DNA from: a virus
Strand: one strand, 5' to 3'
Virus record (IMG/VR): IMGVR_UViG_3300045988_177309
Coordinates: 32,170-96,169 of that record
Length of the DNA stretch: 64,000 nucleotides
Shown in pieces: positions 28,001 through 52,795 of this stretch. Both the position numbers and the translations under genes were made by a program. Below the pieces are notes generated by a model, which saw only the letters and a list, made by a program, of their open reading frames with translations, was not told where the DNA came from and made no database searches. How positions within the stretch are numbered: position 1 is the first letter of the stretch; each line of letters begins with the position of its first letter.

Positions 28001-28010
28001 TTTTTATAAG

Positions 28011-28834: not shown

Positions 28835-28860
28835 TCTAATTAAAAGGAGATATTTAATTA

Positions 28861-30864: not shown

Positions 30865-30931
30865 TTGATGATTGGACGAATTCCAATAAATAAATAAGTA
30901 TAATTTTTAATTTCCTTAGAGGAATAATAAA

Positions 30932-30967
30932 AGGGAAAGGGGCTTTTGTTCCTTTCCCCTTTTTTTA
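30932..30967 (+). terminator. rho-independent terminator
   Basis: Stem agggaaagg / cctttccct followed by TTTTTTT. Confidence 0.65.
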
Positions 30968-31005
30968 TTATGTTACGAAATGATAGAAAGGAGTTAAAAA
31001 ATATA

Positions 31006-34000: not shown

Positions 34001-37000
34001 TTGGTAATTATTATATTGCAGTTACCACTTATAAAGCATATGATTGGCCGAATATAAAAGATTATCGCACCAGTGTACAAGGTTTTCCCGTATTAGGTTT
34101 CTGCAAAAATGGAGAAACCTATACATTTTTAGGTCGCTTCAATCTACTTTTGGATAAAGGTTCAGATGAAGCTTATGGATTTAAACCCAGTGAAAAAATA
34201 AGCCAAAAATTTTTAGGTAATAAAGCCGTACGTAAAATGACTGAGTGCTGGGAATTCTCAGATAATGGCCGCACATTCTGCTCATTCAGAGATCCTTTAA
34301 AGCGTAAAGAATTCAGTTTTAGTATGACTCAAGATGAAATGCGTCGCGCTGGAATGAATACTGAAGGCCTTGTGTTTAATGGCAATGAGCGCGCAAACTC
34401 TAAGGGTTGTGGCCCAATAGTAACGGATAGCTACGAATATCGTTATCATACTGATTCTGATCTTTTGGATTATATTTATGATATAACTGGTGGCGGTGTA
34501 ACTACTGAAGATTTGGCTGATGGTGGTTATGCTCCCGAAGAATATTCTACTCCTGAGAATAGAAATGCCTCTTTGTTTAAGAAGATGAAAAACTGGGAAC
34601 GTGCTTGTAAATGGGTTTGGAGTACTTGTGTTGATTATGTTGGTAAAGAAGACGATTTAATTAATAAGTATGCGATAAAACAATATGGCAAAAATGCTAC
34701 ATTCGTTCATACTAAAAAATATTCTGCGGCAAAAATTCCTACTGTTGAAGAGACAATTTTATTTAATCCAACAGAAGTAACAATGGCTTATGATAACGTT
34801 AAGAATAATTTAATTCAAGCCGGATTAACTGAAGATATTTTAAAGAGCGCTGAATGGGGTACTGTTGATGGCACTGATAGTAGCGGCAATATTATTTATA
34901 CATTTTCTGATAGTGATGTATTCCGCGCTTATGCTAAAATTACTGGTTATGTTTATGTACAAGATCTTGATAAAGTTGGTACTTATTAGACTGGTACAGT
35001 TGAAGCTTATACCAATGTATTTAATACAATTAAACAAACTCCTGAAGATTATGCAACTGATAATATTGAAGTTCTTAATCCCGCAGTTACCATTAATAGC
35101 GTTACTCATTATTTTGATACTCAAGAATATCGTTTAGCCAAATTTAAGAAAGAGCTTCCTGAACACTTCGATTTAGAATATTGCTTAGTGTATTTCTTAA
35201 TTACAGAAATTTTCCTTTGCTATGATAGTCGTGGAAAGAACTGTATGATGGCGTCCTGGGGTCCGCAAAAAGAAGGTGGCGATTATATTTGGTATCCTAT
35301 TTTTTATGATATGGATACGCAGTTGGGTATTAATAATACTGGTATTCCTTCTTTCGAGTATTATGTAAATGCCCAAGAAGAAGGTTGTTTCTCTACTAAT
35401 GATAGCGTATTATGGGCAAATCTTTATACTTGTTTTAAAGATGCTTTAAAAGCTAAGTATTTCCAGATGCGCGGGGATGGTAGTGGTATTATAAACATTA
35501 ATACTAAAAAAGCTACCACTCCTTTGCTTGGTTCTTCTACTGGCGATAATGACACTCGTTCGGCATTGCAGCGTGATGTTGACCATATTGAAAAATGGTA
35601 TTTAGCTGACCCTGACGAATGTGACTCTATTGCGATGAGAGGTATTCGTCCTTTAATGGCTTTAAATTTAGATGAGTATTGGAAGTATATTTCTATTACT
35701 AATGCCGCAGGTGATGGTTATCAAAATCAAGATGGCGATAAAGCGATTGATGGCGATGGCACTTATTTCTATGCTTTGCAGGGCGACCGCAGTTTATCAC
35801 GTTAGCAATTCTTAATGAATCGTATTAATTTTTATGATTCAGTCCAAGGCTGGGGCGAATATGCGCGTGCAGGTACCTCAATACAAGGTCGTATTATTGC
35901 TAATGATATAAATCAAACTTCTGATAAATATATTGATAATAATACTACTACATTACCAGATGGATTTGTATATTCACCATATTATGTTATGGAAAATGGT
36001 GTTGAAAAGAAAGATGCCAATGGCAATCCTATTAAAACCAATTATTTAGATGCCGATTTGGCAGTCAAAATAATTCCTTATCAACGTCAATATGTTACTA
36101 TTGGCGGTGATAATAGTTCAATGGAACCGTAGTTATATAAGGGCGATAAAGCTGTTTATATGCAACTTCCTGGTAATATGCCTATTGGACGTCGTAGCGG
36201 TGCTAAATATGGCGAACAATTGTTTTATATTTATGGCGCGAGCTTCTTACAAGATATTGGTGATATGAGTACTCTTTATTGGCGTGAATTCAAAGCATTA
36301 GGTGCGTCACGTTTATAGAGATTATTACTTGGTTCAGAATATCCTGGATATTTCTTAAAGACTAATCCGCCCAGTTTTGATGCTTCCAAGAATAGCGCAA
36401 AAGGTAAGCCAATGTTAAAAGAAGTAAATCTTACTGGTGTATTTATTGAAAATGTGCAAACATTAGACTTCTCCAGTAGTGAAAAATTACAATCTTTCCG
36501 CGCAGTACGTTCTAATATTTAGAATATTGTATTCGCGGAAGGGGTTGCACTTAACACTTTACATATACCTAAAACATTAACAAATCTTAATTTAGTTGAA
36601 GCTTCGCAATTGAAAGGTTTGGTTACTTCTTATGAAGCACCTACAGAAGAGAATTTCTCTACTTGGACTCCTCCTGTAGGATTATATATTGAAGATTTAA
36701 CTAATAATTTAGATACTGCGACTGAAACTGGTTTGAATGTGTTAAGCATTAATGGTGATTACTTTGGTTATGATAGTTATAAATTATTAAAAGCTTTAAC
36801 TCGTATTAAGCTTTAGCCAAACCAAGGACAGCTTTAGATATCATTGCGTGGTGTAAATTGGATGCCTTATGAAAAATTAACAGAAGGTTATACTTATAAT
36901 GCTTCTGAAGAATATTATAAGGATAATGGTCACTATGGTTTAGACGCTTGGACTTGGGATGCCGCAGAATGGGATAGTTTGCTTATTGATGGTAAATTAT

Positions 37001-38535
37001 TCAAGAAAGTTATCAATAAGTATGAATCTATTGTTGACATAAACATGTTAAAGGATTATATTGAAAAATATAGCTCTATTTTTAAGGGTACGGCTACCGC
37101 AATGCCTGAGATTACTGGTTATATCTATATTGAAAATAGTGATATAATTGATGAAGGCTATATCCGCAATACTTTATAGAACAATAATTATTATCCTAAC
37201 CTTAATTTCTTCTTTAAGAATGTAAAGCCCGGTTATTCTGGCACATTTTTATAGATAGATGAAGATGGTAAGAAAAATGTTGTTGGTATATAGAAGATTG
37301 CTGCGGATGATTTTGAATCTAATACTATTGTACGATTCTCTAATCCTTATACTATTTATACTCCAAAACCAAAGCCAAACTATGACTTCCTTGGTTGGGC
37401 AACTGATGCCGCAGGTGAAAATATAATTACTAATGAAGCTTGGGAAGAATGGTCTTGTACACAAGGTGTTATGGATTATACCTTCTATGCTATTTATATT
37501 AAACATAAATATAAGATGTTTTTCTATAATGATGATGATACATTAATTGATGAGATAGAGGTTACTTACAATGAGAAGCTTTATCCTCCTACGATCGTTC
37601 CTCATAAAGATGAATCAACATTGCCATTAGAAAGCACTTATAAACATGTTGGTTATTCGACTAGTAAGGGCGGTCGTAAAGTTGATTTAGAGTCTATGCG
37701 CTCAATCAAAGATTATAAGTTCTATGCGGTTTATGAAATTGCTAATGTTTATGATGCTCCATTTGATGAAAAATTCTTTGATTTCACTTCTGGAACATAT
37801 CATGAACAAAGTGGTTACTATATTAGTGTTAAATCTGGGTATTCATTATCTGGTAAAGTAACATTGCCAACTCGTTATAATAATCAACCTGTTATTGGTA
37901 TATTGGGAGCTTCAAGTCAATCAGACAGTAGTTTTGTTAATGGCTTTAGAAATAATAATGATATTACTCATATTTTCTGGTATAAAGACTCTGCTGGAAT
38001 GAATATAATTGATTTTGCAATGCGCTGTTTTGAAGGAATGGGTTCATTACAATATATTGAAATTCCTGGCACTATAGAGCGCTTTGGAGCTTATTGTATG
38101 GCTTCAATCCGTAAGAATAATGAGGTTAATGTACCAGTATTAAAGTTAAATCGTATTGATATTAATCCTGATAAGATTTGTCGTTTTGATGCTTATGCAT
38201 TTAGTGGTTCGCCAGTTGATAATGAATCATTTACAATTACAGGCCGCTTTGATTTTATTGGTAATCAGGCATTTGCTTATCAAACAAAAATATCAACTTT
38301 TAATTTCGGTGATGCAGAAAAAGGCTGTTATATTACTAGTATGCGTAGCAGCAATTAGTATTATCAGGTACTTCGTTAGAATCCTTCTGATCGTACTATT
38401 ACAACAGTAAATATGTATTCTGACCAAGAAAATATTAACAAATATAGTGCGCCTGAATCTGACGACTATCTGCCCAATCTTACTGGTCTTACTACTGCTA
38501 GTGTTAATGTTACTTATAATTATACAGTTATATAA
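31006..38535 (+). CDS. giant multi-domain fibre/adhesin-like protein (~2509 aa) with a C-terminal BspA-type leucine-rich-repeat region; TAG-recoded
   Basis: The ATG at 31006 follows the ribosome-binding site GAAAGGAG. Frame 1 is continuous through 11 ORF-track pieces (30946 to 37471), separated only by TAG. TAA lies at 38533-38535. The N-terminus shares the fibre N-domain. The C-terminal ~300 aa carry a repeating I.IP..V..IG..AF pattern like LRR_5/BspA. Confidence 0.7.
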
Positions 38536-38546
38536 GGAGAAGTAAA

Positions 38547-38756
38547 ATGAGAAAGTCTACAGTTTATAGATACTTAGGCACTAATGGAATAATAGATAGC
38601 CCTATTCATATCGAGGGTGCATATTCAGTGCGCTATTACTCCTTATTTGCCGATGAAGGAAAAGTTCTTACTAAAGACCATAAGAGATTCGTCGAAATGG
38701 TAACTGTTCCAGAAGCAGATTTAAACTTATGGGTAGAAATAGATAAAGAACAATAA
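38547..38756 (+). CDS. hypothetical small protein (69 aa)
   Basis: Intact ORF with ribosome-binding site TAAGGAGAAG and no TAG. Confidence 0.45.
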   Translation: MRKSTVYRYLGTNGIIDSPIHIEGAYSVRYYSLFADEGKVLTKDHKRFVEMVTVPEADLNLWVEIDKEQ

Positions 38757-38772
38757 GAAACATTAAAATAAA

Positions 38773-38808
38773 GTGAGTTAGGAAATTTGTTTCCTAACTC
38801 ACAATTTT
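38773..38808 (+). terminator. rho-independent terminator
   Basis: Stem gtgagttaggaaa / tttcctaactcac followed by AATTTT. Confidence 0.55.
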
Positions 38809-38831
38809 AATAGAAAGGAAGTTAAAAGCTA

Positions 38832-40646
38832 ATGATTACTTATGTAAATAGTGAAAATACTGTTAAATATCGTAAGCTATTTGAAGAAGCTAATAAAATC
38901 TTGAAAAAGAATGGTGATATGCAAGATGGTGCAGAAATCACCACTTTAGAAGATTATTTTGGTTATATTACCAAATTGGCCAAATATGACCATGATGATA
39001 CCTCTAATAATTCACCAGTTTATGACCCTTCAAAGAATAGGCAATTTAAATATACTATTTTACCAGTAGATGAGGAAGTATTTTTGATTGATGCAAATAC
39101 AAGAACTATTACTGTGCCGCCTAGTTTTAAGAAGAACGGTATTTCAGTAAAAGGCGATGAAATTGCAGAAATACTTTATTTTGAAATTGATCGTTATTTT
39201 GATGCTACTGATTTAAATACTAAAGAAATTTATATATAGTGGGAAACCGCCCCTGATGCTAAAGGCGTTACTGAAAAGAACGTTTCTATCCCTTGGGTGC
39301 GTGATATTGTAAGTAAGCCCGGAAAACTTATTTTTGGTTGGCCTATTTCTTCTGAAATTACTGACCGTGCGGGTACAATTAAATTTTCTGTGCGCTTTAT
39401 TAGTAAGACTAATGAAGAAAAGCCTAAAATTACTTATAGTTTTAGTACTTTAACTGCAAGTGCAGCAATTAACCCTGGTCTTGATTTAGATATAGAAAAT
39501 GATAGTGCAATAGAAATTGTGGATCGCAATGATTTAATTCTTAGTCGTTTTGTTGATACTAATCCTGTTGGTGGTCAAACTGCAGAAAAACCCATACTGT
39601 TTAAAGATTTGCCCGCAACGATTAATCTTGAGGGTGAAAGGGATAATCAATCTCAAGTTCTTCGAGTACAAGCTGAAAGTCAAGATGCTGGCGTTATTTC
39701 TATTTCTTGGACTCACATGCAAAATGGTCATATTGTACCTAGTGCTAATAGCAAACTTATAGTTTTACCAGATGAATATATATTGAGTACTGATGGTAAT
39801 TTTGTAAAAGGTAAAGCTTATTATACTAAAGTAGAAAATGACAATAACATTTCTGGTTATCAGATTGCGGAAGTTACTGATGGAGATCCGATTCCTGCAA
39901 ATACTTATTATGAAAGGTTCTATGCTTGTACTATTTCTGAGACTGGCACTTATTTTGCAACTATCACCAATCGAGTACAGATTAGTTCTGATACCATAGA
40001 TACTACTAAATGCGTAGTTCCCGCTGCAAGCAAACCTATAATTAATAATTTTCCCACGAGTTCATTGTTTGATGCAGATATGACTCCTGTATCATTAATC
40101 TGTCTTGCGCAAAGTCCTGATGGCGGCGAGCTCACTTATCAATGGTATTCTAAGGAAAATCTTATTGAGAATGCTAATAAGAATGAGTATACTACAAATG
40201 AAGAAGGTAGTTATAGCGTAATCGTTACTAATCATTTAAATAACAGTATAATGACTACATAGTCTGAGGTTTGCCGCGTTACTAAATTGGCTGAAAAGCC
40301 CCGCATCTTAAAACCTTTGCCTGCTTCTGAAAGCGACATGGCTGAAATCGAGATGGAAAATGGTTCTGCTATATTAGAAGTTACTCTTGACTCCACTGTG
40401 GCTACTGATGGATATACTTATCAATGGTATAAATGTGATTATAAGAATGATTATGCGGAAAGTGGAAAATAGCATCCTCATGAAAATGATGAAGCTCTCT
40501 TGCCTGAGGCTGTTCAAACCACTGATCTTGCTATTCGTTATACAGTTAATGCTTCAGGCTATTATTATGTTAAAATTACTAATAATCTTAATGGTAGTCA
40601 ATCTGAACCCACTTATAGTTTATTATTCAAGGTTGCGCAAATCTAA
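38832..40646 (+). CDS. structural protein (~604 aa) with C-terminal Ig-like repeats; TAG-recoded
   Basis: Frame 0 is continuous through pieces 38832, 39297 and 40287. The motif TYQWY.KEN / TYQWYKCDY recurs in ~90-aa units. The N-terminal ~130 aa are paralogous to the gene at 40665. Confidence 0.65.
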
Positions 40647-40664
40647 TTAAAGAGGTAACAAACG

Positions 40665-41261
40665 ATGATAACAACTGCCGCGGAATATGAAAAATATTTG
40701 TCATAGATTTATGACGTAAATCCTCCCACCTTGGCAGTTTTACTCCCTAGCAATGAACCCATTTATAAAATTGATTTAAACAAAAGAACTGTTGAAGTAC
40801 CAGATTTTTTAAGTGTGGAAAAAGATCATAGGGCAGAATGTTTATATTTTATTGTAGATAGATTTTTTGATAATATCGATTTATCTACTACAACTTGTGT
40901 AATACAATATATAAATGCTGGTGGGGAATCGCGGGTATATGCTGTCCCATATTATGACGTAACCACTTATAATAATCCCGATTCGCCTAAGATGCTCATT
41001 CCTTGGGCTATTGGAGGCGAAGCAACTAAGTATGCCGGCGATGTTACTTTCTCATTTAGATTTTATAAACTTAATAAAGTTTTAGATGAAAAAAATCCAA
41101 GATATTTTACTTATAACTTAAGCACTCGACCGACAAAAGGTAAGGTGTTATATGGCTTAGATATTAAAGATTTAGAAGCTAGCAACTATTTAGCTGATAA
41201 AGAAGAAGAAATCTATGCTCGTATAGCCGCATTAGAAAGTTTAAGTTGGATTGATTTATAA
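40665..41261 (+). CDS. structural protein (~198 aa), paralogue of the N-terminal domain of the 38832 gene; 1 in-frame TAG
   Basis: ATG at 40665 follows the ribosome-binding site AAAGAGGT. The shared motif is T.TVP.F...AE.LYF..DR.FD..DL.T. Confidence 0.55.
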
Positions 41262-41270
41262 TAAAAATTA

Positions 41271-41298
41271 AGGGAGAATATTTTTCTCCCTCTTTTTT
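41271..41298 (+). terminator. rho-independent terminator
   Basis: Stem agggagaa / ttctccct followed by TCTTTTTT. Confidence 0.55.
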
Positions 41299-41377
41299 AT
41301 TTTATGGACACTTTTTATTAATGCAATTTAATAAAAAAAGAGATATTTATAGAAGATAAAAAGGAGGAAAATGAGTT

Positions 41378-42178
41378 TTGGCAAATGAATATGTAAAAAC
41401 ACTCAAGACCTCTGATGGTGCAATTATTATTTATCCTGAAACAATGGCGAGTGGCGTGTTTTATGTTGACCCTAATAATAGCGAATAGGGCAAAGGTGTT
41501 GTCATTCGTGAGGGTGTGAATAAAAATAAAACCGTCCAAGAGAAGCTTGAAGAATTAGAGGCTATGTGGTCTAAAGCATCTTTTTCAGGAACTTTGACTA
41601 CTGAAAATATAACCATTACTGGTATTGTTAAAATAATTACCAGTGAACATTTATATAATAATAGACCCGGAAAGGTTGGGCCTTTAACTAGTGGTCTTAA
41701 TAATGCAAAGGTTTTAATATTAAATAATAATGATGTTTTATATTATACTACTGTGCGGAATTTGCTTGAAGGCGATATGAAAAATTATCTGTCACTTAAT
41801 GGTGGAAAAATGCGCGATAATGCGACTATTAGTATTTCTGCACCCATCACAAGTGCAGCTCATGTAGTAAATAAAGAATATTTAGATTTTAATATTGTTA
41901 ATAATTTATTAAAAAATTATGTAGAAGGGGATTTGGGCTTTGAATTTTACCCACAAAATACCCCTGCGCAAAGTTTGCCAGCACCTAAATCTAAACTTGT
42001 TACAACAACAGTAGTAAAGGATTCTATTGGTAAATTAATTACTGTTTCTGCAACTCAACCTGCAGGTAGTAATTTTTAGGTTGGCGCACTTTGGATTGAT
42101 ACTGGCGGCAAGAAAAATAATTTTTTGCGCTATTGGACAGGAACAGGTTGGGCGGCTGTGCCAGTTGCCTGGACTTAA
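41378..42178 (+). CDS. hypothetical virion-module protein (~266 aa); 2 in-frame TAG
   Basis: TTG start 10 nt after AAGGAGG. In frame with ORF piece 41516, and continues through TAG at 42077 to TAA at 42176-42178. Confidence 0.5.
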
Positions 42179-42188
42179 TATATTTATA

Positions 42189-42214
42189 GGGGAAGTTTTT
42201 AACTTCCCTTTTTC
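42189..42214 (+). terminator. rho-independent terminator
   Basis: Stem gggaagtt / aacttccc followed by a T-run. Confidence 0.55.
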
Positions 42215-42302
42215 TTTTTATAAACGGCCGAATTAAAATAATGAAATTAATTAAAAATTTATATAATAGTAGTGAATTTGACAAGAAAGGAGTCTTTTAA
42301 AG

Positions 42303-43247
42303 ATGGCAACAGAAAAAACTCCATTAAAAATTTATAGAGGTATTAATGGCACTAATACATCAAGTGGTTCTGTACCAGCATTGCAAGCTGGTACTTTAAT
42401 TTTTAATGAAGGACTTGGATTTTTTACTTTAGATGTAAATACCAGTAAAGCAACTGTCTCAGACGCGGCAAAGACATTATTAAACGATACTGTAAACTTT
42501 ATAAACGAAAGTCTTTCTAGTGCTGACAGTTTTAAAATATTAAGTTCTAATGATAATAATAATATAATGCGCTTGCCTTTATTAGCAAGTGGCGCTTTTT
42601 ATGCAACTTATGCAGATCGTGCCACCCAAGCGAATATGGCTAATTATACATAGCTTGGGCAAGAAGATGAATTAAACTCACGTATGCATCATATTGGCAG
42701 TTCTTTTTTACGTACTGGTGCAGAGTATAATTTATTTACAGGTTTTTATAATGCTTTTAATATTAACGGCTCTAATTATTCAGATAATATGGGAGTCTTT
42801 AGTCCAGAATTTGCAGAAGCAATATCTGAAGAACAAAATATCAATTTACCAGTAAAATTTTATAATAGTGTTTATATTTCAAGTGATGTGGCTCAAAGAA
42901 TACCTAATGGTTTAGAGGAAAGTTTATGGACTTTAAATATAATCAATCCAATTTTAAAATTAGGTAGATAGGTTAAATTTGAAACTGGTGGAGATATTAA
43001 GTTAATACCTGAAGAATCAACCGATGATTTATCTATTGTATTAGAAAAATATTTATCAGCTTCATAGCAAGAAAATGGTGAAGAACCTGAGCAAATAGTC
43101 CATATTAATAATTATTATAAAAGTACCTTTATTAAAGGTATTACCACTTCTTCATCTTATATTCCAAATGAAGATTATGATTTAGTAACAGTTGCTTATA
43201 TGCGCGATAATGCTGGCGGCAAGGCCATATTTAGAAGGTGGGCATAA
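42303..43247 (+). CDS. fibre-type protein (~314 aa) with the conserved fibre N-terminal domain; 3 in-frame TAG
   Basis: Frame 0 pieces 42303 and 42684 are joined by TAG. TAA lies at 43245-43247. The N-terminus reads LKIYRG...GTLIFNEGLG. Confidence 0.55.
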
Positions 43248-43250
43248 TTT

Positions 43251-43673
43251 ATGGGTAAAGTTTATTTAGGCGGACAATAGATTAGTGGAATGCACATTCT
43301 TGTAGGCCCCACTAATACACAAGATGCTAATTTAACTGATGCGAAAATGTTGCCTGAAGGTTATAGTGCATACGGTCCCAATGGTAAAGTTGTAGGTACT
43401 GCACATAATATTCAAGCAAATGAAATTACAGCTGCAATGTCGCCTAATGCTGTTAAAAATGGTGATAATTATTATGCGGTATTTAATATTACTATGCCTG
43501 CTGGATATTATGATGGTGGTCCAATAACTGTAAATTCTCTTATAGAGGGATTTAATCCAGCTTCTATACCTTCAACTGTTACATTTTTAGGTATTAAGGG
43601 TACTAAAGTTTATGGAGTTACTGAAACAACAGATAGTAATGGTTATGTAACATTAACTATTACTACAAAGTGA
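43251..43673 (+). CDS. hypothetical protein (~140 aa; 1 in-frame TAG)
   Basis: ATG at 43251; in frame with ORF piece 43290. Confidence 0.45.
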
Positions 43674-43688
43674 TAAAGGAGTGAAATT

Positions 43689-43919
43689 ATGGCTAAAAAT
43701 TATAAGAAAGCGATAATGGATGGAACTGTTTTATTTGATTATAGTGATTCAAATGCAACAGCAAGTGATTTAAGAATAGGAAAAGTGGCCTATGTTAAAG
43801 GTGCTAAAGTAAATGGTTCTATAACTTTTAGAGATGTTTATTTTGGTAATATTACAGAGCCTCCAACAGACATAGGAGAAGTAGGTGACATTTTTATTGT
43901 TACTGAAGCTACTGAATGA
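43689..43919 (+). CDS. hypothetical small protein (76 aa)
   Basis: Intact ORF. Its TGA stop overlaps the next ATG. Confidence 0.4.
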   Translation: MAKNYKKAIMDGTVLFDYSDSNATASDLRIGKVAYVKGAKVNGSITFRDVYFGNITEPPTDIGEVGDIFIVTEATE

Positions 43920-45211
43920 TGGCTGCAATTAAATTAGTTAATGTCGCAACAGTATTTCCAAAAAATCATGATTCAGTTTATTATATTGATAATAAAAACT
44001 ATATAACATTAGAATCTTATGATTTATGTGCTCAAGACTTTAGTATTGAATGATGGGAATATCCTATTGTTAATACTTGCGGCACAAGATTTACATCTAT
44101 CTTTCCTGATGCTTATAATAATGGTAGTGGAGGTTTGTTATTAGGCTCTGTAAGTACAGCTCCTAATATTTAATTATATGGTAGTTATGGAATAGCAAAT
44201 GGTTCTAACTGGACAATTTGGTCTTAGAAAGCTATGACAGCAAATACTCTAAATACTTGGACACATCGTCGTTATGAACGCATAGGTACTGTTATGTATG
44301 AGTATATTAATGGCACAAAGACTAATGTGTATACTTGTAATAATTATGGATTTTGGGCTTCTTCTGCATTTCCGATGGCTATTGGATATTAGGCAAAAGA
44401 TAGTACAAATGTTGGTTCTTATTTTTAGGGCTATATGCAGAATTTCCGCATTCATAAGGGAGCAATAGGCAATGGCACTACTGCACCAATAGATGATTTA
44501 ACTATCCCACAACTGGACGTTACAATTATCGATAAAGGCGAAGGAAATAAATTACCAATACCTAAGAGAGAATATAGCTTTAATGGTGTGTTTTATGAAT
44601 CTGGCGATGGAAATATTATTAATAATAACACTTATATAGCTTATGGCAATGGCGCAGTCACTGATGAAAACAATGTTTTAAATAGTAATTTTCCTTCTTC
44701 ACTTAAATTTGATGGTGAAAATTCTGGCGACGGCTGTTCAGTTGAAATTCCAATAAATTTATCTAAAGATTTTACTATTGAAACCTGGCTAAATGTTTGG
44801 GCAGTCCCAACATAGCCATCAGCTTTATTATCTTTGCAAGATTCTAATAGTACTAATACAGTTACATTATTGCATGGAGTGAATTATGGTACATTATATG
44901 TTGATTCTACTGACAGTAATCGAATAACTATAACACCCAATAACTGGCATCATTATGCCATTATGAAAAAAGGCGATCGAATATCATGGTTTTATGATGG
45001 AGAATTTGTTGATGTCGTTAAACAAATTACTTTGCCTAATACTATTTCAGCTATTTTATCTATTAATGGTAATGGTTTTGGTGATAATTTTACTGTTAGT
45101 AGTTCTGGTATTTATATAAATGATTTATATGTAACCAATAAAGCTATTTATAATGATAATGGTTTTACACCTCCAGAAGAGTACAGAGAACTTATTTTTT
45201 ATGATTTTTAA
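43919..45211 (+). CDS. tandem LamG (concanavalin-A-like lectin) domain protein; its first domain carries in-frame TGA and TAA (possible pseudogene or partly decayed gene)
   Basis: A single frame runs from 43919 to 45211. Two LamG_3-like domains are present. The first reads DFSIE-x-WEYP...WTHRRYERIGTVMYEYINGTK...GYMQNFRIHKG and the second DFTIETWLNV...WHHYAIMKKGDRISWFYDGEFV...IYINDLYVTNKAIY. TGA at ~44051-44053 and TAA at ~44171-44173 lie in-frame inside the first domain. Four in-frame TAG codons are also present. Confidence 0.4.
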
Positions 45212-45213
45212 GC

Positions 45214-45433
45214 TTTAGCTTTATGACGCAGTCTTAACAAAATCTTAACAATTTTTAATATAATTTAACAAAATTTTTATGGGCAAAAAGAATTTATATT
45301 CCTATAAGAACTTTCTTATAAAATAGAGGAAAAAAGACAAATAAATAAACCTTTTTCTTTTTGGCCATATTTGATTAATTCTAAATAAATAAAAATTAAA
45401 TAATACAGAGAGAAAAGGGGGAATAAACTTTTT
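45214..45433 (+). promoter_or_regulatory. largest +strand intergenic region; direct repeats of TTAACAA(AAT) plus a TATAAT box
   Basis: The repeats are tcTTAACAAAATcTTAACAATtttta, then TATAAT, then tTTAACAAAATtttt. No ORF is present. A ribosome-binding site GAAAAGGGGG precedes the ATG at 45434. Confidence 0.35.
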
Positions 45434-46003
45434 ATGGCAAATGATTATACTGATCAATAGGCACAATTAGTTCTTAATATATTAAATAAGTCTAAATATA
45501 ATTAGTTAAGTGAAGGCTCTGCATTAAATGCTAATGAGCTATATTTAGTGCCTGATGACGTATCTGACTTAAATGTTAATGTTGAAAAATGCCAAGTTTA
45601 TTGCCGAGTAAGCATTATCATGGTGCCTAGCACTGCCACAGATACTGAGCTTGTTAGCAAGTTTTTAGCTTTAACCCCTGCTGCTTTTACTGACCCAAAT
45701 GGCAAGTCCAGTTATTTTTTGAAAGGTGGTTCAGGCTTTGGTACTGCGTATACAGCACCAAGTGATAGTAATAAGACTGATAATGACTGTTTTGTTTTAC
45801 AAGGTCGGCAAATAATACTTAGGTATAATGATGCAAAGGGTTTTAGAATTTTTACTTATACTGGAGGCGTATCTTCAACAAGCGAAATCTTTGGCGGTTA
45901 TAGTATCAGTAATCCTCCTCCAATAGCATTAAGAACTGATGAAACTGAATGTTCATTCACTATAGGGACAGACATTGTAGTTTTTATTAAAGTAGATACT
46001 TAA
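45434..46003 (+). CDS. hypothetical protein (~189 aa; 2 in-frame TAG)
   Basis: In frame with ORF piece 45548; TAA at 46001-46003. Confidence 0.5.
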
Positions 46004-46028
46004 AAGCTAAGAAAGGAGAATAGAATTA

Positions 46029-46838
46029 ATGCCTTATACAATTAATACATCTGGTGCTGTTACCAGTTTAACTATAGTAAAATTAAACGCAATTGATTAC
46101 GCACAACGCTCACAACAATCTGGTTTTGATAATGATTTAAGCCGTATCTTTATTGTTGAAGGTGGCGTTGGTGGAGGTAGTTCTTTGGGCGGTGGTGGTT
46201 CTGCGGCCATTGATATAGCAACTACTTCTAAAGCTGGTATAGTCATGGTTCCTGCAAGTGGAGGTCTTGTTGTTGATAGTGATGGCTCGATTGGTATTGG
46301 TGCAAATAAAGTTAGGATCACAAATGCCACAGCTTCTACAAGCACTACTTCTGGCGCCCTTACTGTTTCTGGCGGCGTTGGTGTCGCTGGCAATATATAT
46401 GCTGCAAAAGTATATGGTGCTGTTTGGAATGACTATGCTGAATATCGTGTAAGTAATAAAGAGATAAATCCTGGTCGAGTAGTTTATGAATTAGGTAATG
46501 ATGCAGTAGAGCCCTCTAAAACAAGACTTATGTATGGTTGCTCTATAGTTTCTGATACTTATGGTTTTGCTATTGGTGAAACCAATAAAGCCAAAACTCC
46601 TTTAGCAGTTTCTGGTCGAGTATTAGCATATACTTATGAAAATCGTGATGAATATAGAACACATATTGGTGATTTTGTTTGCTCAGGCCCTAATGGTACA
46701 GTTTCTATTATGACCAAAGAAGAAATTCAAACTCATCCATAGGCAGTGATAGGTTCTATTAGTGCTGTTCCTGATTATGAGTCTTGGGGTAGCAATAATG
46801 TCCTTGTTGATGGTCGAGTTTGGATTAAAGTGAGGTAA
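46029..46838 (+). CDS. Gly-rich fibre-like protein (~269 aa; 1 in-frame TAG)
   Basis: Contains GGVGGGSSLGGGGS tracts and the motif GAVWNDYAEYR. Confidence 0.5.
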
Positions 46839-46845
46839 AAAAAAT

Positions 46846-47244
46846 ATGGATTGGTTAGAATTATTAAACCAAATATTTCAGGTATGCATAATACCTTTGC
46901 TGGGTGTGCTGACAGCTTTCCTAGTAGCTTATATCAATAAGAAAAAAGAGGCTTTAAAGACGCAAGTTGATAATACTTTATATCATAAATATATTGATCT
47001 TTTAAGTCAAACTATTACAGATTGTGTAATAGCGACTAATCAAACTTATGTAGATTCTTTAAAAGCTTCCGGTACTTTTGATATAGAAGCACAAAAGAAA
47101 GCTTTTGAAGATACTTGTAATAATGTATTGGCAATATTAAGTGATGATGCCAAAGAATACTTGTCTATGGCTCTTGGAGATTTACAAACTTATATTGCTA
47201 ATAGGGTTGAAGCAGAAGTTAAGTTAAATAAACCACAATTATAA
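46846..47244 (+). CDS. holin-like small membrane protein (132 aa)
   Basis: Intact ORF. The N-terminal hydrophobic helix IFQVCIIPLLGVLTAFLVAYI is followed by a charged tail. It lies at the end of the virion module. Confidence 0.5.
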   Translation: MDWLELLNQIFQVCIIPLLGVLTAFLVAYINKKKEALKTQVDNTLYHKYIDLLSQTITDCVIATNQTYVDSLKASGTFDIEAQKKAFEDTCNNVLAILSDDAKEYLSMALGDLQTYIANRVEAEVKLNKPQL

Positions 47245-47254
47245 ATAAAAACAA

Positions 47255-47296
47255 AAAGGGGAAACTACCTATACAAATAGGTAGTTTCCCCTTTTA
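47255..47296 (+). terminator. strong rho-independent terminator
   Basis: Stem aaaggggaaactacct / aggtagtttcccctttt, 16 bp, with an 8-nt loop and a T-run. Confidence 0.7.
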
Positions 47297-47455
47297 TTTG
47301 TATACTCTATCTCTATTGAATAGGGTATACTTTAAAAAATTTTACAAAGAAATGCTTGGACAAAGGTAATTAAGATTATTAGTCTTAATTTTCAGATATT
47401 AATGAAGAGTATGGGGACTTTTCATTTTTAAAAATAAAAAGAAAGGATTAATGGT

Positions 47456-47827
47456 ATGCAAACTCAATATACTTATTACCCCTAGTCGCCAACTATGCGA
47501 CCATAGCAAACAGCAATACCAATATAGCAATAGCAACCTTTGTTTTTAAAAGGGCGCCCAGTTGCTTCATTAGAAGAGGTAAGAGCTTTGCCAATCGATT
47601 TTGATGGAACGGTATTCTTTTTCCCCGATTTAGCACATGAGCGAATCTATACTAAATAGATTGGTTTAGATGGCAGTCCATTGTTTAATATGTATGTATT
47701 ACAATAGATACCTTCTGAAACTCCAGCAAACTATGTTACTAGGGAAGAATTTGAAAAAGCTATTGATTCACTAAAATCATCTTTAACTCCAATAGTAGAG
47801 CAAACCGCAGAAGAGTTTAAATTTTAA
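47456..47827 (+). CDS. small protein (~123 aa) with a Gln-rich N-terminus encoded largely by TAG (7 TAG)
   Basis: Ribosome-binding site AAAGGA, then ATG at 47456. The N-terminus decodes as M-Q-T-Q-Y-T-Y-Y-P-Q-S-P-T-M-R-P-Q-Q-T-A-I-P-I-Q-Q-Q-Q-P. Confidence 0.45.
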
Positions 47828-47844
47828 GAAAGGAGACAAAGATC

Positions 47845-48084
47845 ATGCAAGTAAATCCTATGCAATTTATTCAAATGATAAAGGGCGGCCAAAATCCACA
47901 ACAATTAATGATGAATTACATGTAGTCAGAAATAGGGAATACTCCTATGGGCCAGAATTTGTTATAGCTTGCGCAAAACGGTAATACTCAACAAATTGAG
48001 CAAATTGTACGCAACTTAGCCGCACAAAGAGGAGTAGACTTTGATAGTGAATTTAATGCCTTTAAACAGAGTTTAGGGCTTTAA
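47845..48084 (+). CDS. small hypothetical protein (~79 aa; 2 in-frame TAG)
   Basis: Ribosome-binding site AAAGGAGAC, then ATG at 47845. Confidence 0.45.
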
Positions 48085-48115
48085 ATAATATAATATTAAA
48101 GGAGGAACATTTAAT

Positions 48116-48913
48116 ATGTTCAATTATGGTAATGGTTATAGCTTGTCTGATATCGCTGCTGCGAGTGGTAATCGTAATGGCGATGGGTTTAGCGAAGGTA
48201 ATGGCGCTTGGTGGATTATAATACTCTTCCTGTTCTGTTTTATGGGCGGTTGGGGCAATAATCGTAATGGCTGGGGCGGAAATGATTCCGGTGCTGGCAC
48301 AAATGGCGCTTTAACTCGTGACGCTATAACTTATGGGTTTGATATGAATGCTTTAAGCAATCAGATTGCCAACACTCATAATGCAGTAATCAATGCCACA
48401 GAGGCCACAAATAGCGGCGTAAGAGTCTTACAAAATGACCTCTGTGGTATTGGCATGACTAATTTATAGAACACAAATGCAATCACTTCTGCGATTACTA
48501 ACGGCACGTTCTCACTGTCCAATCAGTTACAAAATATGGCCGCAGTTAATGCGCAGTGCTGCTGTGATAATAAAATGCTTGTGTCCTCAAATTTTGCAGA
48601 TCTTAACTACAATCTTGCAACTCAAGCTTGTCAAAATCGTCAAGTTGTTTCTGATAGTACTCGTGATATTATTGATGCGAACAATAATAACACTCGTCAG
48701 ATACTTGACTTCTTAGTCAATGATAAGATTAGTTCTTTAACAGCAGAAAATGCTTCTCTGAAAGGTCAGATCTCTCAGAGCGAACAGAATGCTTATTTGA
48801 TTTCCAAGCTTTCTCCTTCTGCAACTCCTGCTTATATCGTTGCTAATCCTTATACTGGTAATACTTATACAACCTATGGTTGTGGGTATGGCTGTGGTTG
48901 CAATAATAATTAA
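48116..48913 (+). CDS. membrane-anchored protein (~265 aa) with a Gly/Asn-rich N-terminus and a Cys/Gly-rich C-terminus; 1 in-frame TAG
   Basis: Ribosome-binding site AAAGGAGG. A transmembrane segment AWWIIILFLFCFMGGWG is present. Pieces 48116 and 48536 are in one frame, joined by the TAG at 48467. Confidence 0.5.
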
Positions 48914-48932
48914 AGAAAGAGGTTAAAAAATT

Positions 48933-49352
48933 ATGGAGATAACAGCGAATGCTTTATAGTCAGTTAATTCTGGCTCTAATGTAGTGTTTACTGATACTGC
49001 TGTATCTGGTAATTGCTCAATAATCTATCGCGAAGGTAGTGGGCTAGTTACTTTAAAAGGCGCGACTAATCAAAGACGCGCTCGTTTTAAAATTTCTTTT
49101 GGCGCTAACATTGCGATTCCTACTGGTGGAACAGTTGGTGCTATTTCATTAGCTCTTGCAATCAATGGTGAGCCTGTTTAGGCCACTCAAATGATTCAAA
49201 CTCCTGCAGCAGTTGCTGAATTCAGTAACGTATCACGCACTCTGTTTTTAGATGTGTTAAGTGGATGTTGCACTCAAATTAGTATAGAAAATACTAGTAC
49301 TGGAACAATCTCTGTTCAAAATGCGAATTTAATTGTTGAGCGTGTTGCTTAA
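48933..49352 (+). CDS. hypothetical protein (~139 aa; 2 in-frame TAG)
   Basis: ATG at 48933 in frame with ORF piece 48984; TAA at 49350-49352. Confidence 0.45.
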
Positions 49353-49369
49353 TAAAGGAGGTCTTATTT

Positions 49370-49810
49370 GTGGATTGTTTAGAAAAAATGAGAGATACCT
49401 TTATAGAACAAGTTCAAGCGCAATTAGGGCATTTAGAATGCGTTGATACTAAAGAAATGGGCGAAGTAATAGATATTATAAAAGATTTAGAAGAAGCTAT
49501 TTATTACTGCACCATTACTAAAGCAATGCAGGAAAAAGACGAAAATGAAATGTATTATTATACTGAACATGAACATCTACGGACTTAGACAAGGGATAAA
49601 CGCGAAGGAGCTAGTCCCTTATCCCGAAAACACTACCTTGAAGTAAAATCTATGAATGCCGACAAAGTTACACAAGTAAAAGAATTAGAAAAATATATGA
49701 ATGAACTCACTAGCGACATAGTAGAAATGATTCAAGATGCTTCTCCAGAAGAGAAACAATTATTGCATAAAAAAATGTAGATGTTAACTTCCAAGATTGA
49801 ATAGATCTAA
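49370..49810 (+). CDS. hypothetical coiled-coil protein (~146 aa; 3 in-frame TAG)
   Basis: GTG start after the ribosome-binding site AAAGGAGG. Confidence 0.45.
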
Positions 49811-50125
49811 GTGATTAAAATAAATGGGGAGAGATGGATAATTAAGTTCGTCTCTCCTTATCATCCAAAATTAAAAACTCCTAATCATTCTTACACTCTT
49901 GGATCTTGTGATAATATTACATAGACTATTTATATTAATGAATACATAGCTCCTAACCAAATAATAAAAGTTCTCCGTCACGAACTTACACATGCGGTAT
50001 TCAAAAGCTATAATATTCGACTAGAACCAAAAATAAAAGAAGAGGTTGCTGATTTTATAGCGACTTATAATGATGTTATAACAGAAAAATTAAATGAGAT
50101 ATTAAAAGAAGAGGGTATAGTATAA
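49811..50125 (+). CDS. small HExxH-motif protein (~104 aa), a putative Zn-metallopeptidase-like protein; 1 in-frame TAG
   Basis: GTG start. Contains the motif VLRHELTHAV. Confidence 0.4.
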
Positions 50126-50146
50126 ATTACTATACCCTTTTTTTTA
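50113..50146. terminator. bidirectional rho-independent terminator where the + strand late module and the - strand module converge
   Basis: Stem gggtatagta / tactataccc flanked by TTTTTTTT. Confidence 0.6.
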
Positions 50147-50648
50147 TTTTAAAAATGAAATTGAAGAGGTCTAGTCTTGATATTTTTCTTTTACTATTTC
50201 AAAGTTTCTATCTCCATCGTGATTTCCTCCAAGACTATTATATATTTCATGTTCTTTAGAAATATTCTAAAATTCATCATAAGTAATAATATGACTTGGA
50301 TCTAATAAAATTCGGCAATTAGCTATAAAATTTTTTTTATACATACTTAATAGACCAGATTTTATTTTTTTTAATTCTGCGACAGTAACTTCAACCTTTT
50401 CATCTAAAATTTTTCTTTTAGTATTCGAAGCTTCAATATGGATTTGTAATTTTTCTAAAAGATCTTTATTACCAACAGTAATTGCATCTGCTATTTTTTC
50501 ATCAATATTAGTTAATTCGACATTATGCTGGCGCTATTTTTCAGCTTTATATAAACTATAATAATGTTTAGCTAAACTACTAACCCCTAAAGCAATTAAG
50601 CCAAATACTACTTCTAGCCAATATTTTACTATAAAATCAATCAAAGGT
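50144..50648 (-). CDS. membrane protein (~167 aa; 3 in-frame TAG)
   Basis: TTG start after AAAGAAAGGAG. An N-terminal transmembrane helix IVKYWLEVVFGLIALGVSSLA is present. Confidence 0.45.
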
Positions 50649-50726
50649 AGCACTCCTTTCTTTAAAAGCTCTCCGTCATTTACTTTTAAAGTTAAAGTGT
50701 TTTGATTAATATATATCGGCCAAAGC

Positions 50727-51224
50727 TTATTCCCAGATTAGCATTTGCTTACTATGTTTAATGCCGTATTCACCAATACAAATAGCATCACAAGCGTCTT
50801 GTGCAACTTTTATATTATATTTATTCTATATATATAACTAAGCATTTTTCTTTTGAGTTGCACGATCACGCCCCTTAATGCCACAAAGAGATTTCCAGGA
50901 GCTGGCAGAAATTATTTGATAAGGTATATTAATTTCAGTGCATAATTCTTCTAGTACGCCAAAAACTTCTGCTAGCTTTTGGAAGGTATCAACATTTGCA
51001 ATTTTTGTTTCACGATTTTCCTATAACTGTATATCTTCGAAAGCTATTTCATTAATTTCATATTCTTCAATTAATGAAAGAACTTTTTTTCTAATTTTAA
51101 CTAAGCGATCTCCCATTTCATTATCAGCAAATGTAAAAGTACCAACTTTATATAATTGCTAATTTTTAAAAACCGCATAACCTGTCGTTCGTGTAGCCTA
51201 ATCTAATGCTAAAAGATTACCCAT
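50727..51224 (-). CDS. ruvC: RuvC-like Holliday-junction resolvase (~165 aa; 5 in-frame TAG)
   Basis: Decodes as MGNLLALD-Q-ATRTTGYAVF... The ATG overlaps the dut stop (ATGGGTAA). The ORF track shows only spurious fragments here because of the TAG codons. Confidence 0.65.
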
Positions 51225-51762
51225 TCACTGAGGTACTACCGAAGCCACCCCCCCGTGAAGTTGTCACATTATCATCAGTGACAGTATCATAGGTGCAAAT
51301 AATGCCTTGGCAAATTTTATCTCCACGTTTTATTTGAATAGGAAATGGACTAAAATTAATCACTTGGAAAAATACCTCGCCTTCATTACTCTCATTATCT
51401 ACGTAATCAGCATCAATAATACCGACTGAATTAGCGCAAACAAGCCAGTATTTAAGAGGAGAAGAACTGCGCGATACTAATTTTAAATATTGATTAGAAT
51501 TTAAATATACTTTAACACCTGTGGAAATTAAAGTGGGTTTAAGCCCACTTTGTTTAGTCCAACAAGTAATATTGTCTAGGCTAAGAACTTTTGATTGCGG
51601 AAAATCTTTATATCCGCGGATCATATCTATATAAGGTTGAATAACATAATCCTCAGCTGCAACCATATCATAGCCTGCGCTTTGAGCCGTAGCACGCTTA
51701 GGAATTAAATCATTTTGACCCTAATATTTTTTTACGGTTTCAAACCTTACTTTTGAGGTCAT
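51217..51762 (-). CDS. dut: dUTP diphosphatase (~181 aa; 1 in-frame TAG)
   Basis: ORF 51217..51666 extends upstream through a TAG to the ATG at ~51762, with ribosome-binding site GAGGTGGAATA. Contains dUTPase motifs RSS...GIIDADY and RGGGFGSTS. Confidence 0.75.
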
Positions 51763-52004
51763 TATTCCACCTCATAAATTATATTTACCGTAGTTTCAGG
51801 CTCTTTTTCAAGATTAAAACTCTTTTTTACAGTTACAAGCTGATACTCATCAATTATTTCACCATGATCTTTAATGGGCTTAGTCTTATACCCAAAAGAA
51901 CTCAAAGTAAAACTGGAATCGTTTTTGAGTTCTTCATGAAAAGCTTCAACTTCATTTACTGTATCTATTCTATAAACATCGGTACTTGATATAAGATATT
52001 TCAT
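51762..52004 (-). CDS. hypothetical protein (80 aa)
   Basis: Intact ORF. Confidence 0.4.
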   Translation of the reverse strand: MKYLISSTDVYRIDTVNEVEAFHEELKNDSSFTLSSFGYKTKPIKDHGEIIDEYQLVTVKKSFNLEKEPETTVNIIYEVE

Positions 52005-52005
52005 A

Positions 52006-52260
52006 TTAATTTATTTTAACCTCTAAATTATTATAGTTATATTCTGTTTTTGCTAAATCTATTAAACCTTCAGCAAATGTTTCACAATAAGGCTCCGCGC
52101 CAATAAGATGAACTTTATTGTCATTATATTTATCAACTGCGTACATAATTGCAGCCATACAATCGTCTGTTGAAGAAGTCGCAATGGGGTCTTGCTTATT
52201 TCCATCAACATGAAGAATATGATGATTATAAGTAAATAAATCCATAGTACAAACTATCAT
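52006..52260 (-). CDS. hypothetical protein (84 aa)
   Basis: Intact ORF with ribosome-binding site GGAGGTTTAAAATAAT. Confidence 0.45.
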   Translation of the reverse strand: MIVCTMDLFTYNHHILHVDGNKQDPIATSSTDDCMAAIMYAVDKYNDNKVHLIGAEPYCETFAEGLIDLAKTEYNYNNLEVKIN

Positions 52261-52261
52261 A

Positions 52262-52795
52262 TTATTTTAAACCTCCAAATGCAATAATACCTCTATCATA
52301 AGGGAATAAATAGCCGCAAACAATTTCATCATTATAATTTTTAATCCATATTTCAAGAAGGCCAGGCATAGTACATTCATCTATTACTTTTACCTCTTGG
52401 GCAATATCAATAAGACATTCTGCAATTGAGTCAGAAAGATTTTCATTATAATAAAAAGTGTCTTTCCGTCGTGCAAAAATAAAATCACTTATAAAAAGTG
52501 TATAATATTCCATCTCTTTAAACAAAAGCATATAGGTCTTATCTTTTTCATTGAACTTTGAAATAGCCTCACCTAATTTTCCTTTTATTTCTTCTGGAGT
52601 CAGCGAAGGTAATTGTGAAATTATTTGTTTATTCATATCATATATTGAAAAAGAAAGCGTCGCATCATTATCTATTTCTATCCAGTTATTATTTTGTTCA
52701 TTCCAAATATAATAAGCATCAGTTTCTTTACAATAAACTTGATGTGATTTATCAGCAGTTTCCAATTCTTTTAAAGTGTCAATTTGCGGCACCAT
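52262..52795 (-). CDS. hypothetical protein (177 aa)
   Basis: Intact ORF with no TAG. Confidence 0.45.
   Translation of the reverse strand: MVPQIDTLKELETADKSHQVYCKETDAYYIWNEQNNNWIEIDNDATLSFSIYDMNKQIISQLPSLTPEEIKGKLGEAISKFNEKDKTYMLLFKEMEYYTLFISDFIFARRKDTFYYNENLSDSIAECLIDIAQEVKVIDECTMPGLLEIWIKNYNDEIVCGYLFPYDRGIIAFGGLK

What the first reader, a model, noticed from the sequence alone, without database searches (positions are those of the whole stretch)
43919..45211. Tandem-LamG gene with in-frame TGA and TAA in addition to TAG
One frame encodes two LamG_3-like domains with matching motifs. The first domain is interrupted by TGA at ~44051 (DFSIE-TGA-WEYP, aligning with DFTIETWLNV of the second domain) and by TAA at ~44171. 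Elsewhere in the window TAA and TGA are used as genuine stops.

Possible explanations are:
- a recent pseudogene;
- a decaying N-terminal domain with re-initiation downstream;
- context-specific readthrough.

The 220-nt repeat-containing non-coding region lies directly after this gene.
Basis: seen in the sequence. Interest (0 to 1): 0.55.

Follow-up and report, generated by a model that had tools for sequence, protein, structure and literature searches.

The report
Broken remnant of a tail-fibre-like gene
The in-frame TGA and TAA are real, but eight related phage contigs all carry ordinary Trp (TGG) and Gln (CAA) codons there and a much longer intact gene, so this is a recently inactivated pseudogene rather than a new kind of stop-codon decoding.

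Summary
The frame 43919..45211 encodes two Laminin_G_3 (LamG) domains. It contains TGA at 44051-53, TAA at 44171-73 and four TAG codons. TAG is read as Gln throughout this phage's structural genes.

I recovered eight independent related contigs. All have TGG (Trp) at the TGA site and CAA (Gln) at the TAA site. The closest, L081, is 99.2% identical in DNA. It encodes an intact 1118-aa protein: a short N-terminus, 687 further residues including a third LamG domain, then LamG1 and LamG2.

The window copy is that gene with three lesions:
- an in-frame 2061-nt deletion at 43942/43943;
- TGG>TGA;
- CAA>TAA.

Across 17.5 kb of window sequence compared with relatives, no other gene has an in-frame TAA or TGA. 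TAA ends 24 and TGA ends 3 of the 27 plus-strand ORFs in 1..50125. No in-frame start with a Shine-Dalgarno sequence follows the stops. No SECIS-like element is present.

Verdict: a recent pseudogene remnant of a variable, lectin-rich tail-fibre-like protein at the end of the tail module. It is ordinary and of low interest. The raw reads could not be checked.

The parts
43916..44053 (+). The only reading frame still translatable from the native start. ATG ATG overlaps the upstream gene's TGA stop (ATGA coupling). It runs 44-45 codons and then meets TGA.
   Evidence: The start context is conserved in L081 and L001.
43942..43943 (+). Junction of an in-frame 2061-nt (687-codon) deletion relative to the 99%-identical relative L081 (L081 positions 377..2437 after reverse-complementing the stored locus). 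It is flanked there by the imperfect direct repeat TAGTTAAT / TAGCTAAT.
   Evidence: BLAST coordinates and junction sequences; intact 1118-aa orthologue.
43991..44467 (+). LamG1: a Laminin_G_3 domain (residues 25-183), interrupted by both stops.
   Evidence: 43.7 bits, model positions 3-145 of 151.
44051..44053 (+). Nonsense codon TGA. It is TGG (Trp) in all eight related contigs, so the change is a G>A transition at 44053.
44171..44173 (+). Nonsense codon TAA. It is CAA (Gln) in all eight related contigs, so the change is a C>T transition at 44171.
44225..44815 (+). Four in-frame TAG codons (44225, 44390, 44426, 44813), read as Gln as in the rest of the structural module.
   Evidence: At 44426 (codon 170) three relatives have a standard Gln codon and L001 has Arg; the other three TAGs stay TAG in every relative that covers them. 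CAG/TAG swaps in neighbouring genes are shown.
44753..45043 (+). Core of LamG2: the Laminin_G_3 match in the second half. The domain probably extends to about 45190. This C-terminal module is present only in the window and in L081.
   Evidence: 28.0 bits. Searches show its absence from L001 and L078 and a different module in L080.
45212..45433 (+). Intergenic region after the gene. It contains TCTTAACAA x2 and TTAACAAAAT-like boxes and is conserved in relatives. It is not part of the pseudogene. It probably holds regulatory signals for the next genes.

Best explanation
The region is a recently inactivated remnant of a large modular protein with several LamG (concanavalin-A-like lectin) domains. 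That protein sits at the end of the tail module of a phage that reads TAG as Gln.

In close relatives the gene encodes 900-1120 aa, in this order:
- a short conserved N-terminus (MMAAIKLVN);
- a variable N-terminal domain;
- a first LamG domain;
- a further domain;
- LamG1;
- an optional, exchangeable C-terminal module (LamG2 in the nearest relative).

In the window's lineage three lesions accumulated. An illegitimate, microhomology-flanked in-frame deletion removed 687 codons. Two transition mutations turned Trp-TGG into TGA and Gln-CAA into TAA inside LamG1.

Translation from the native start, which is coupled to the upstream gene, should therefore end after 44-45 residues. The two LamG domains are not made.

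Shown here: the lesions, the intact orthologues, and the uniqueness of the stops to this gene. Inferred: the stops actually terminate translation, the intact protein is a virion-borne carbohydrate-binding or host-recognition protein, and the phage tolerates its loss.
For: 1. All eight related contigs have TGG and CAA at the two sites, and the flanking DNA is identical. The contigs are L001/L077, L078, L079, L080, L081, L082, L083 and L084.
2. L081 is 99.2% identical to window 43567..52345. It carries an intact 1118-aa ORF that contains LamG1 and LamG2. The window differs from it by the 2061-nt in-frame deletion and the two nonsense substitutions.
3. Three independent disabling lesions fall in one gene. 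Two of the nine substitutions in this gene are nonsense. Only 1.7% of transition sites can give TAA or TGA, so P(>=2 of 9) is about 0.009. None of the 27 substitutions in the neighbouring genes is nonsense.
4. Across window 32620..50125, compared with relatives, no other real gene has an in-frame TAA or TGA.
5. TAA (24) and TGA (3) terminate the plus-strand ORFs in 1..50125. The stop-delimited ORF layout around this gene is the same in L001.
6. There is no SD-preceded in-frame start after the TAA, whereas nearly all real genes have AAAGGAG or GGAGG.
7. Rfam gives no SECIS or other RNA hit.
8. Context: a tape-measure protein lies at 1136..10477, a holin at 46846..47244, and the intact orthologue has three Laminin_G_3 stretches.
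Against: - No reads were available, so base-call or consensus errors at 44053 and 44171 cannot be excluded directly.
- The excess of non-synonymous over synonymous changes in the gene (6:3, against 8:19 in neighbours) is not significant (Fisher p=0.11).
- There are no frameshifts, the deletion is in frame, and LamG2 is undamaged. The decay is therefore very young, and a residual function of a C-terminal fragment is not formally excluded.
- The window covers only about 64 kb of a roughly 147-176 kb genome. Suppressor tRNAs for TGA or TAA could lie outside it.
Confidence: 0.9

Rival explanations
1. Sequencing, consensus or assembly artefact. The true genome would have TGG and CAA, and perhaps the full-length gene. 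The stops or the deletion would come from errors, damaged DNA (both changes are of the C>T deamination type) or a minority defective variant picked up by the assembler.
For: Both changes are single transitions away from the sequence found in every relative. No reads could be inspected.
Against: - Three separate lesions fall in the same gene, while the other 27 coding differences from L081 are ordinary, mostly synonymous changes. This looks like biology, not random error.
- The repeat at the deletion junction is only about 8 nt. That is far shorter than assembler k-mers, so a repeat collapse is unlikely.
- Random errors would be spread over the 8.8 kb compared, not concentrated here.
Confidence: 0.04
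2. The N-terminal part is dead, but a C-terminal fragment (part of LamG1 plus LamG2, or LamG2 alone) is still made from an internal start and keeps some function.
For: From 44174 to 45211 the frame is open (345 codons, TAG as sense). LamG2 has no nonsense codon or frameshift and still passes the Pfam threshold. In-frame ATGs exist at 44234, 44294, 44375 and 44435.
Against: - None of these starts has a Shine-Dalgarno sequence, unlike nearly all genes of the module.
- The same sequences are present in intact relatives, so no new start has evolved.
- A product from 44234 would contain only the C-terminal half of LamG1 (protein 3).
- The fragment would lack the whole N-terminal 690 residues present in every relative, and so probably any attachment to the virion.
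Confidence: 0.04
3. Context-specific readthrough or incipient reassignment. TGA would be read as Trp and TAA as Gln, the ancestral residues, in addition to TAG as Gln. A 430-aa two-LamG protein would then be produced.
For: - The residues replaced are exactly those of the known reassignments: TGA>Trp (code 4) and TAA/TAG>Gln (from general knowledge; Borges et al. preprint).
- The deletion kept the frame, and no frameshift has accumulated.
Against: - TGG>TGA and CAA>TAA are also the standard one-transition routes to these stop codons, so the identity of the residues carries no weight.
- TAA and TGA end all 27 plus-strand ORFs in 1..50125.
- No other conserved gene in 17.5 kb has such codons.
- Both stops are followed by T. 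In E. coli this is an efficient termination context (general knowledge, not tested here).
- The flanking sequence is identical to that of relatives with sense codons, so no readthrough signal has evolved.
- No suppressor tRNA was found in the window or in the related loci, and there is no SECIS hit.
- The phage survey reports TAG>Gln or TGA>Trp reassignment, not a combination with TAA.
Confidence: 0.02

Closest known systems
Nonsense-mutation and deletion pseudogenes of phage tail-fibre / receptor-binding / accessory carbohydrate-binding genes
   Same: The gene lies at the end of the tail module, just before the lysis genes. It is modular, and its N- and C-terminal domains are swapped among close relatives. 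It was inactivated by a deletion plus point nonsense mutations while the rest of the module stayed intact.
   Different: No function has been shown for the intact protein. It has no annotated phage homologue beyond distant 'concanavalin A-like lectin/glucanase' proteins of Rhizobium phages (24.6-27.1% identity). PHROG matches are to families of unknown function.
Genetic code 15 phages (TAG read as Gln; Borges et al. 2021 preprint 10.1101/2021.08.26.457843; Peters et al. 2022, PMC9523058)
   Same: The genome has low GC (32.7%). There are many in-frame TAGs in structural and lysis genes (45 in the tape-measure ORF). TAA is the preferred stop. CAG and TAG interchange between strains.
   Different: The TGA and TAA in this gene are not part of that recoding. 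They are unique to one strain and one gene.
Laminin_G_3 (PF13385) concanavalin-A-like lectin domains
   Same: Both halves score above the Pfam gathering threshold, and the DF(S/T)IExW motif is present.
   Different: LamG1 cannot be translated intact here. The two domains are only distantly related to each other.

Membership tests
Laminin_G_3 (PF13385) domain protein | Sequence scores above the Pfam gathering cut-off (27.6 bits). | tested here: met
   LamG1 scores 43.7 bits and LamG2 28.0 bits when scanned separately. The whole conceptual protein scores 61.4 bits.
Laminin_G_3 (PF13385) domain protein | The domain is encoded by an uninterrupted reading frame. | tested here: not met
   TGA at 44051 and TAA at 44171 lie within the part of LamG1 that matches model positions 3-145.
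Pseudogene (recent inactivation) | Orthologues in close relatives are intact and have sense codons at the stop positions. | tested here: met
   Eight contigs have TGG and CAA. The ORF is complete and intact (902-1118 aa) in L001/L077, L078, L080 and L081, and open to the end of the stored sequence in L079, L082 and L083. For L084 only the two codons and the regional alignment were checked.
Pseudogene (recent inactivation) | Several independent disabling lesions confined to this gene. | tested here: met
   A 2061-nt deletion plus two nonsense substitutions. No other gene is broken in window 32620..50125.
Pseudogene (recent inactivation) | Relaxed selection, seen as raised non-synonymous relative to synonymous change. 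| tested here: inconclusive
   6 non-synonymous to 3 synonymous in the gene, against 8:19 in neighbours. Fisher p=0.11. There are too few substitutions.
Pseudogene (recent inactivation) | No full-length product is made. | not testable with these tools
   Needs proteomics or ribosome profiling of this strain.
Code 15 (TAG>Gln) recoded phage | In-frame TAG codons in conserved genes that align with Gln in relatives. | tested here: met
   Reading TAG as sense raises plus-strand ORF coverage from 50% to 83%. CAG>TAG swaps occur at 46740, 47525 and 49179. TAG and standard Gln codons alternate at one position (codon 170) of the LamG orthologues.
Code 15 (TAG>Gln) recoded phage | A phage-encoded suppressor tRNA(CUA). 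| tested here: inconclusive
   No tRNA was found in the 64-kb window or in the related loci. Most of the roughly 147-176 kb genome is outside the data.
TGA (code 4/25) or TAA reassignment | Recurrent in-frame TGA or TAA in several conserved genes, and the codon no longer used as a terminator. | tested here: not met
   Only these two codons were found, in one gene of one strain. TAA ends 24 and TGA ends 3 of the 27 plus-strand ORFs in 1..50125.
Selenocysteine insertion at TGA | A SECIS hairpin immediately downstream of the UGA. | tested here: not met
   Rfam gives no hit at E<=1. The 11 nt after the codon that the search pattern fixed are identical in all relatives, which have TGG.

The most novel reading that the evidence does not exclude
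In this strain TGA and TAA are decoded at low level as Trp and Gln, the ancestral residues, alongside TAG as Gln. On that reading a shortened two-LamG protein is still produced, and the phage is a first step towards reading all three stop codons as sense in late genes.
Probability: 0.02. Interest if true: 0.8.

Novelty: already known. Interest (0 to 1): 0.1.

Why it matters
It matters mainly as a caution. In a phage that really does read TAG as Gln, further in-frame stops invite the idea of a wider code change. Comparison with close relatives shows plain gene decay instead.

It also gives a dated snapshot: less than 1% divergence from an intact allele. It shows how a modular, lectin-rich tail accessory gene is lost through an in-frame microhomology deletion plus two transitions. 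The gene's N- and C-terminal modules are also exchanged among strains.

For annotation, the region should be marked as a pseudogene. It should not be annotated as a 430-aa protein or used as evidence for a new code.

Tried and rejected
- A protein-based locus search in IMG/VR with the conceptual protein found nothing. The six peptide seeds are listed there; two contain a Gln written for a TAG codon and YYIDNKNY differs from L001's YYIDNRNY, which probably explains why even L001 was missed.
- The word-indexed protein search found no homologue at E<=0.001. One possible reason is that proteins of recoded phages are stored as fragments.
- Blastn of 42000..47000 against the INPHARED phage collection gave no match.
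- The route that worked was to search with the neighbouring 269-aa protein, which led to L001. I then searched exact DNA patterns with NNN at the stop codon.
- I tested whether other same-frame adjacent ORFs (23227/23228, 23617/23618, 43247/43248, 49810/49811) are also genes read through TAA. They are ordinary gene boundaries: the first three have an ATG, with or without an RBS, at or just after the stop, and 49811 opens with GTG. The same stop-delimited ORFs are present in L001.
- I first read a second roughly 797-nt 'deletion' at 48212/48213 as further decay. It is the insert-free allele of an HNH-endonuclease-carrying, intron-like insertion present in relatives. Rfam did not recognise a group I intron there.
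- A DGR-type explanation was rejected. The changes are G>A and C>T, not changes at template adenines, and the non-coding region downstream has no copy of the gene.
- I considered whether the deleted 2 kb had moved elsewhere. Only a 75%-identical paralogous domain at 21020..21532 matches within the window. The rest of the genome could not be checked.

Full report
**Observation**

The window is AT-rich (32.7% GC). On its plus strand, from 1 to about 50 kb, it carries a phage structural module in which TAG is a sense codon. Treating TAG as sense raises plus-strand ORF coverage from 50% to 83%. The 3113-aa tape-measure ORF alone contains 45 TAGs.

In the frame that starts at ATG ATG 43916/43919 the sequence reads through to TAA 45209-45211. 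It contains TGA at 44051-53, TAA at 44171-73, and TAG at 44225, 44390, 44426 and 44813.

Pfam Laminin_G_3 matches both halves above its gathering score. LamG1 (residues 25-183) scores 43.7 bits, and that match spans both stops. LamG2 scores 28.0 bits.

**Finding relatives**

Direct protein searches with the conceptual translation failed, and so did blastn against deposited phages.

Searching IMG/VR with the neighbouring 269-aa protein (46029..46838) gave one close relative, L001. It comes from a 176-kb contig and is about 88% identical in DNA.

Exact DNA patterns flanking the TGA, with NNN at the codon itself, recovered more:
- six metagenome contigs, L078-L083;
- a 174,861-bp contig binned into a 'Clostridium sp.' MAG, L084.

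The window's own sequence is in none of these collections.

**What the relatives show**

All eight independent contigs have TGG (Trp) where the window has TGA. All have CAA (Gln) where the window has TAA. The bases on either side that the search patterns fixed are identical in all of them.

In the relatives, LamG1 is not the start of a gene. It is a C-terminal domain of a 900-1120-aa protein. That protein begins MMAAIKL(V/I)N and continues with:
- a variable N-terminal domain, of which two types are seen;
- another Laminin_G_3 domain;
- a further domain;
- LamG1.

After LamG1 the relatives differ. L001 and L078 have nothing, L080 has an unrelated module, and L081 has LamG2.

L081 (ERZ1035037 NODE-2, 146,667 bp) is 99.2% identical to window 43567..52345. 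It encodes the intact 1118-aa version ending in LamG1-LamG2.

**The lesions**

Relative to L081 the window gene has three lesions.
1. An in-frame deletion of 2061 nt (687 codons). It joins codon 8 to the residues just before LamG1, at window 43942/43943. In L081 the deleted segment is flanked by the imperfect direct repeat TAGTTAAT/TAGCTAAT, the signature of an illegitimate, microhomology-mediated deletion.
2. TGG>TGA at 44053.
3. CAA>TAA at 44171.

The gene shows nine substitutions against L081 in all: 3 synonymous, 4 missense and 2 nonsense. The neighbouring genes show 19 synonymous substitutions (counting three CAG>TAG swaps) and 8 missense, with none nonsense.

Only 1.7% of transition sites in the gene can produce TAA or TGA. 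Two nonsense hits among nine substitutions is therefore unexpected under purifying selection (P about 0.009). The excess of non-synonymous over synonymous change is itself not significant (p=0.11).

For the one LamG1 missense difference (44403), the relatives L001, L078 and L080 agree with the window. In LamG1 the window lineage has therefore acquired essentially only the two stops. The decay is very recent.

**Is it a code change?**

I aligned every long ORF of the relatives against the three forward-frame translations of the window, covering 32620..50125 of the window. The only in-frame TAA or TGA codons inside real, high-identity genes are these two. The other hits are off-frame shadow ORFs or lie upstream of a start codon.

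The other evidence points the same way.
- TAA ends 24 and TGA ends 3 of the 27 plus-strand ORFs in 1..50125. The same-frame neighbouring ORFs are ordinary gene boundaries, and L001 has the same stop-delimited ORFs.
- Both stops are followed by T. Their surroundings are identical to those of relatives with sense codons, so no readthrough element has evolved.
- No SECIS or other Rfam family matches.
- No tRNA is present in the window or in the related loci. Most of the genome is outside the data, so this is weak evidence.
- That the lost residues are Trp and Gln carries no weight. TGG>TGA and CAA>TAA are the standard single-transition routes to these stops.
- The published survey of recoded phages reports TAG>Gln or TGA>Trp reassignment, with TAA as the preferred terminator.

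**Downstream re-initiation**

The real genes of the module almost all have AAAGGAG- or GGAGG-type Shine-Dalgarno sequences. None of the in-frame ATG, GTG or TTG codons after 44173 has one. These sequences are unchanged from intact relatives.

A product starting at 44234 would contain only the C-terminal half of LamG1. It would also lack the 690 N-terminal residues present in every relative.

**What the intact gene probably is (inference)**

- It lies after the tape-measure protein and a run of very large tail proteins. Two genes further downstream is a holin.
- It carries three ConA-like lectin domains.
- Its N-terminal domain is 62% identical to an internal domain of the window's 1611-aa tail protein.
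- Its terminal modules are exchanged among strains.

This is the pattern of an accessory carbohydrate-binding or host-recognition tail protein. No annotated homologue exists beyond distant ConA-like lectin proteins of Rhizobium phages. PHROG matches are to families of unknown function.

**Verdict**

This is a recent pseudogene. It is the C-terminal remnant of a modular multi-LamG tail protein, inactivated by a 2-kb in-frame deletion and two nonsense transitions. Translation from the native start should stop after 44-45 residues.

The remaining uncertainty is whether the three lesions are real in the reads. It is unlikely that errors would cluster like this, but I could not test it. The finding is ordinary, and interest is low.

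**Side observations**

- CAG/TAG swaps between the window and L081 give direct evidence that TAG is read as Gln.
- The relatives carry a roughly 797-nt insertion with an HNH endonuclease ORF inside the homologue of gene 48116..48913. It looks like an intron. The window is the insert-free allele. Rfam does not recognise a group I intron there.
- The 222-nt intergenic region after the pseudogene holds short TTAACAAAAT-type repeats. It shows no convincing RNA structure or terminator.

Noticed in passing
window 48212/48213 (inside gene 48116..48913); L081 positions 6706..7502 after reverse-complementing the stored locus; L001 12173..12969: Relatives L081 and L001 carry a roughly 797-nt insertion that interrupts this gene's reading frame. 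It encodes an HNH endonuclease (phrog_59, E=4e-49). The upstream exon ends in T and the insert ends in G, as in group I introns. The window is the insert-free allele. Rfam found no Intron_gpI match, so the intron class is unconfirmed.
   Followed up: partly
window 46740, 47525, 49179: At these three codons the 99%-identical relative L081 has CAG (Gln) and the window has TAG. This is direct comparative evidence that TAG is read as Gln in this phage lineage.
   Followed up: yes
window 45212..45433: A 222-nt intergenic region with TCTTAACAA x2 and TTAACAAAAT(C/T)TT x2 boxes, plus a long-range inverted repeat (45278-45292 / 45355-45369). It is about 88% conserved in L001. The fold z-score is only -1.7. 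There is no Rfam hit and no terminator-like site, and promoter-like matches are not above chance. It is probably regulatory for the following genes.
   Followed up: partly
window 20996..21538 (within the 1611-aa ORF 18392..23227): This internal domain of a large tail protein is 62% identical in protein (75% in DNA) to the N-terminal domain of the intact LamG protein of relatives, which is the part deleted in the window. Both share the motif LIDLTESFGAGNEPTREWCDENIP. This suggests domain shuffling among tail genes.
   Followed up: partly
L084 (JALFQD010000409.1, 174,861 bp): A contig of the same phage group (93% DNA identity to the window) is deposited as part of a MAG labelled Clostridium sp. 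SUG910. Its length matches the roughly 175-kb phage contigs (L001, and OLGE01000017.1 = L083). It is probably a whole phage genome binned with, and possibly infecting, a Clostridium-like host.
   Followed up: no
relatives L001, L078, L080, L081 (orthologues of the window gene): The module after LamG1 differs between strains: none in L001 and L078, LamG2 in L081 and the window, and an unrelated domain of about 115 aa in L080. The N-terminal domain comes in two types. This is cassette-like variation typical of host-recognition proteins.
   Followed up: partly
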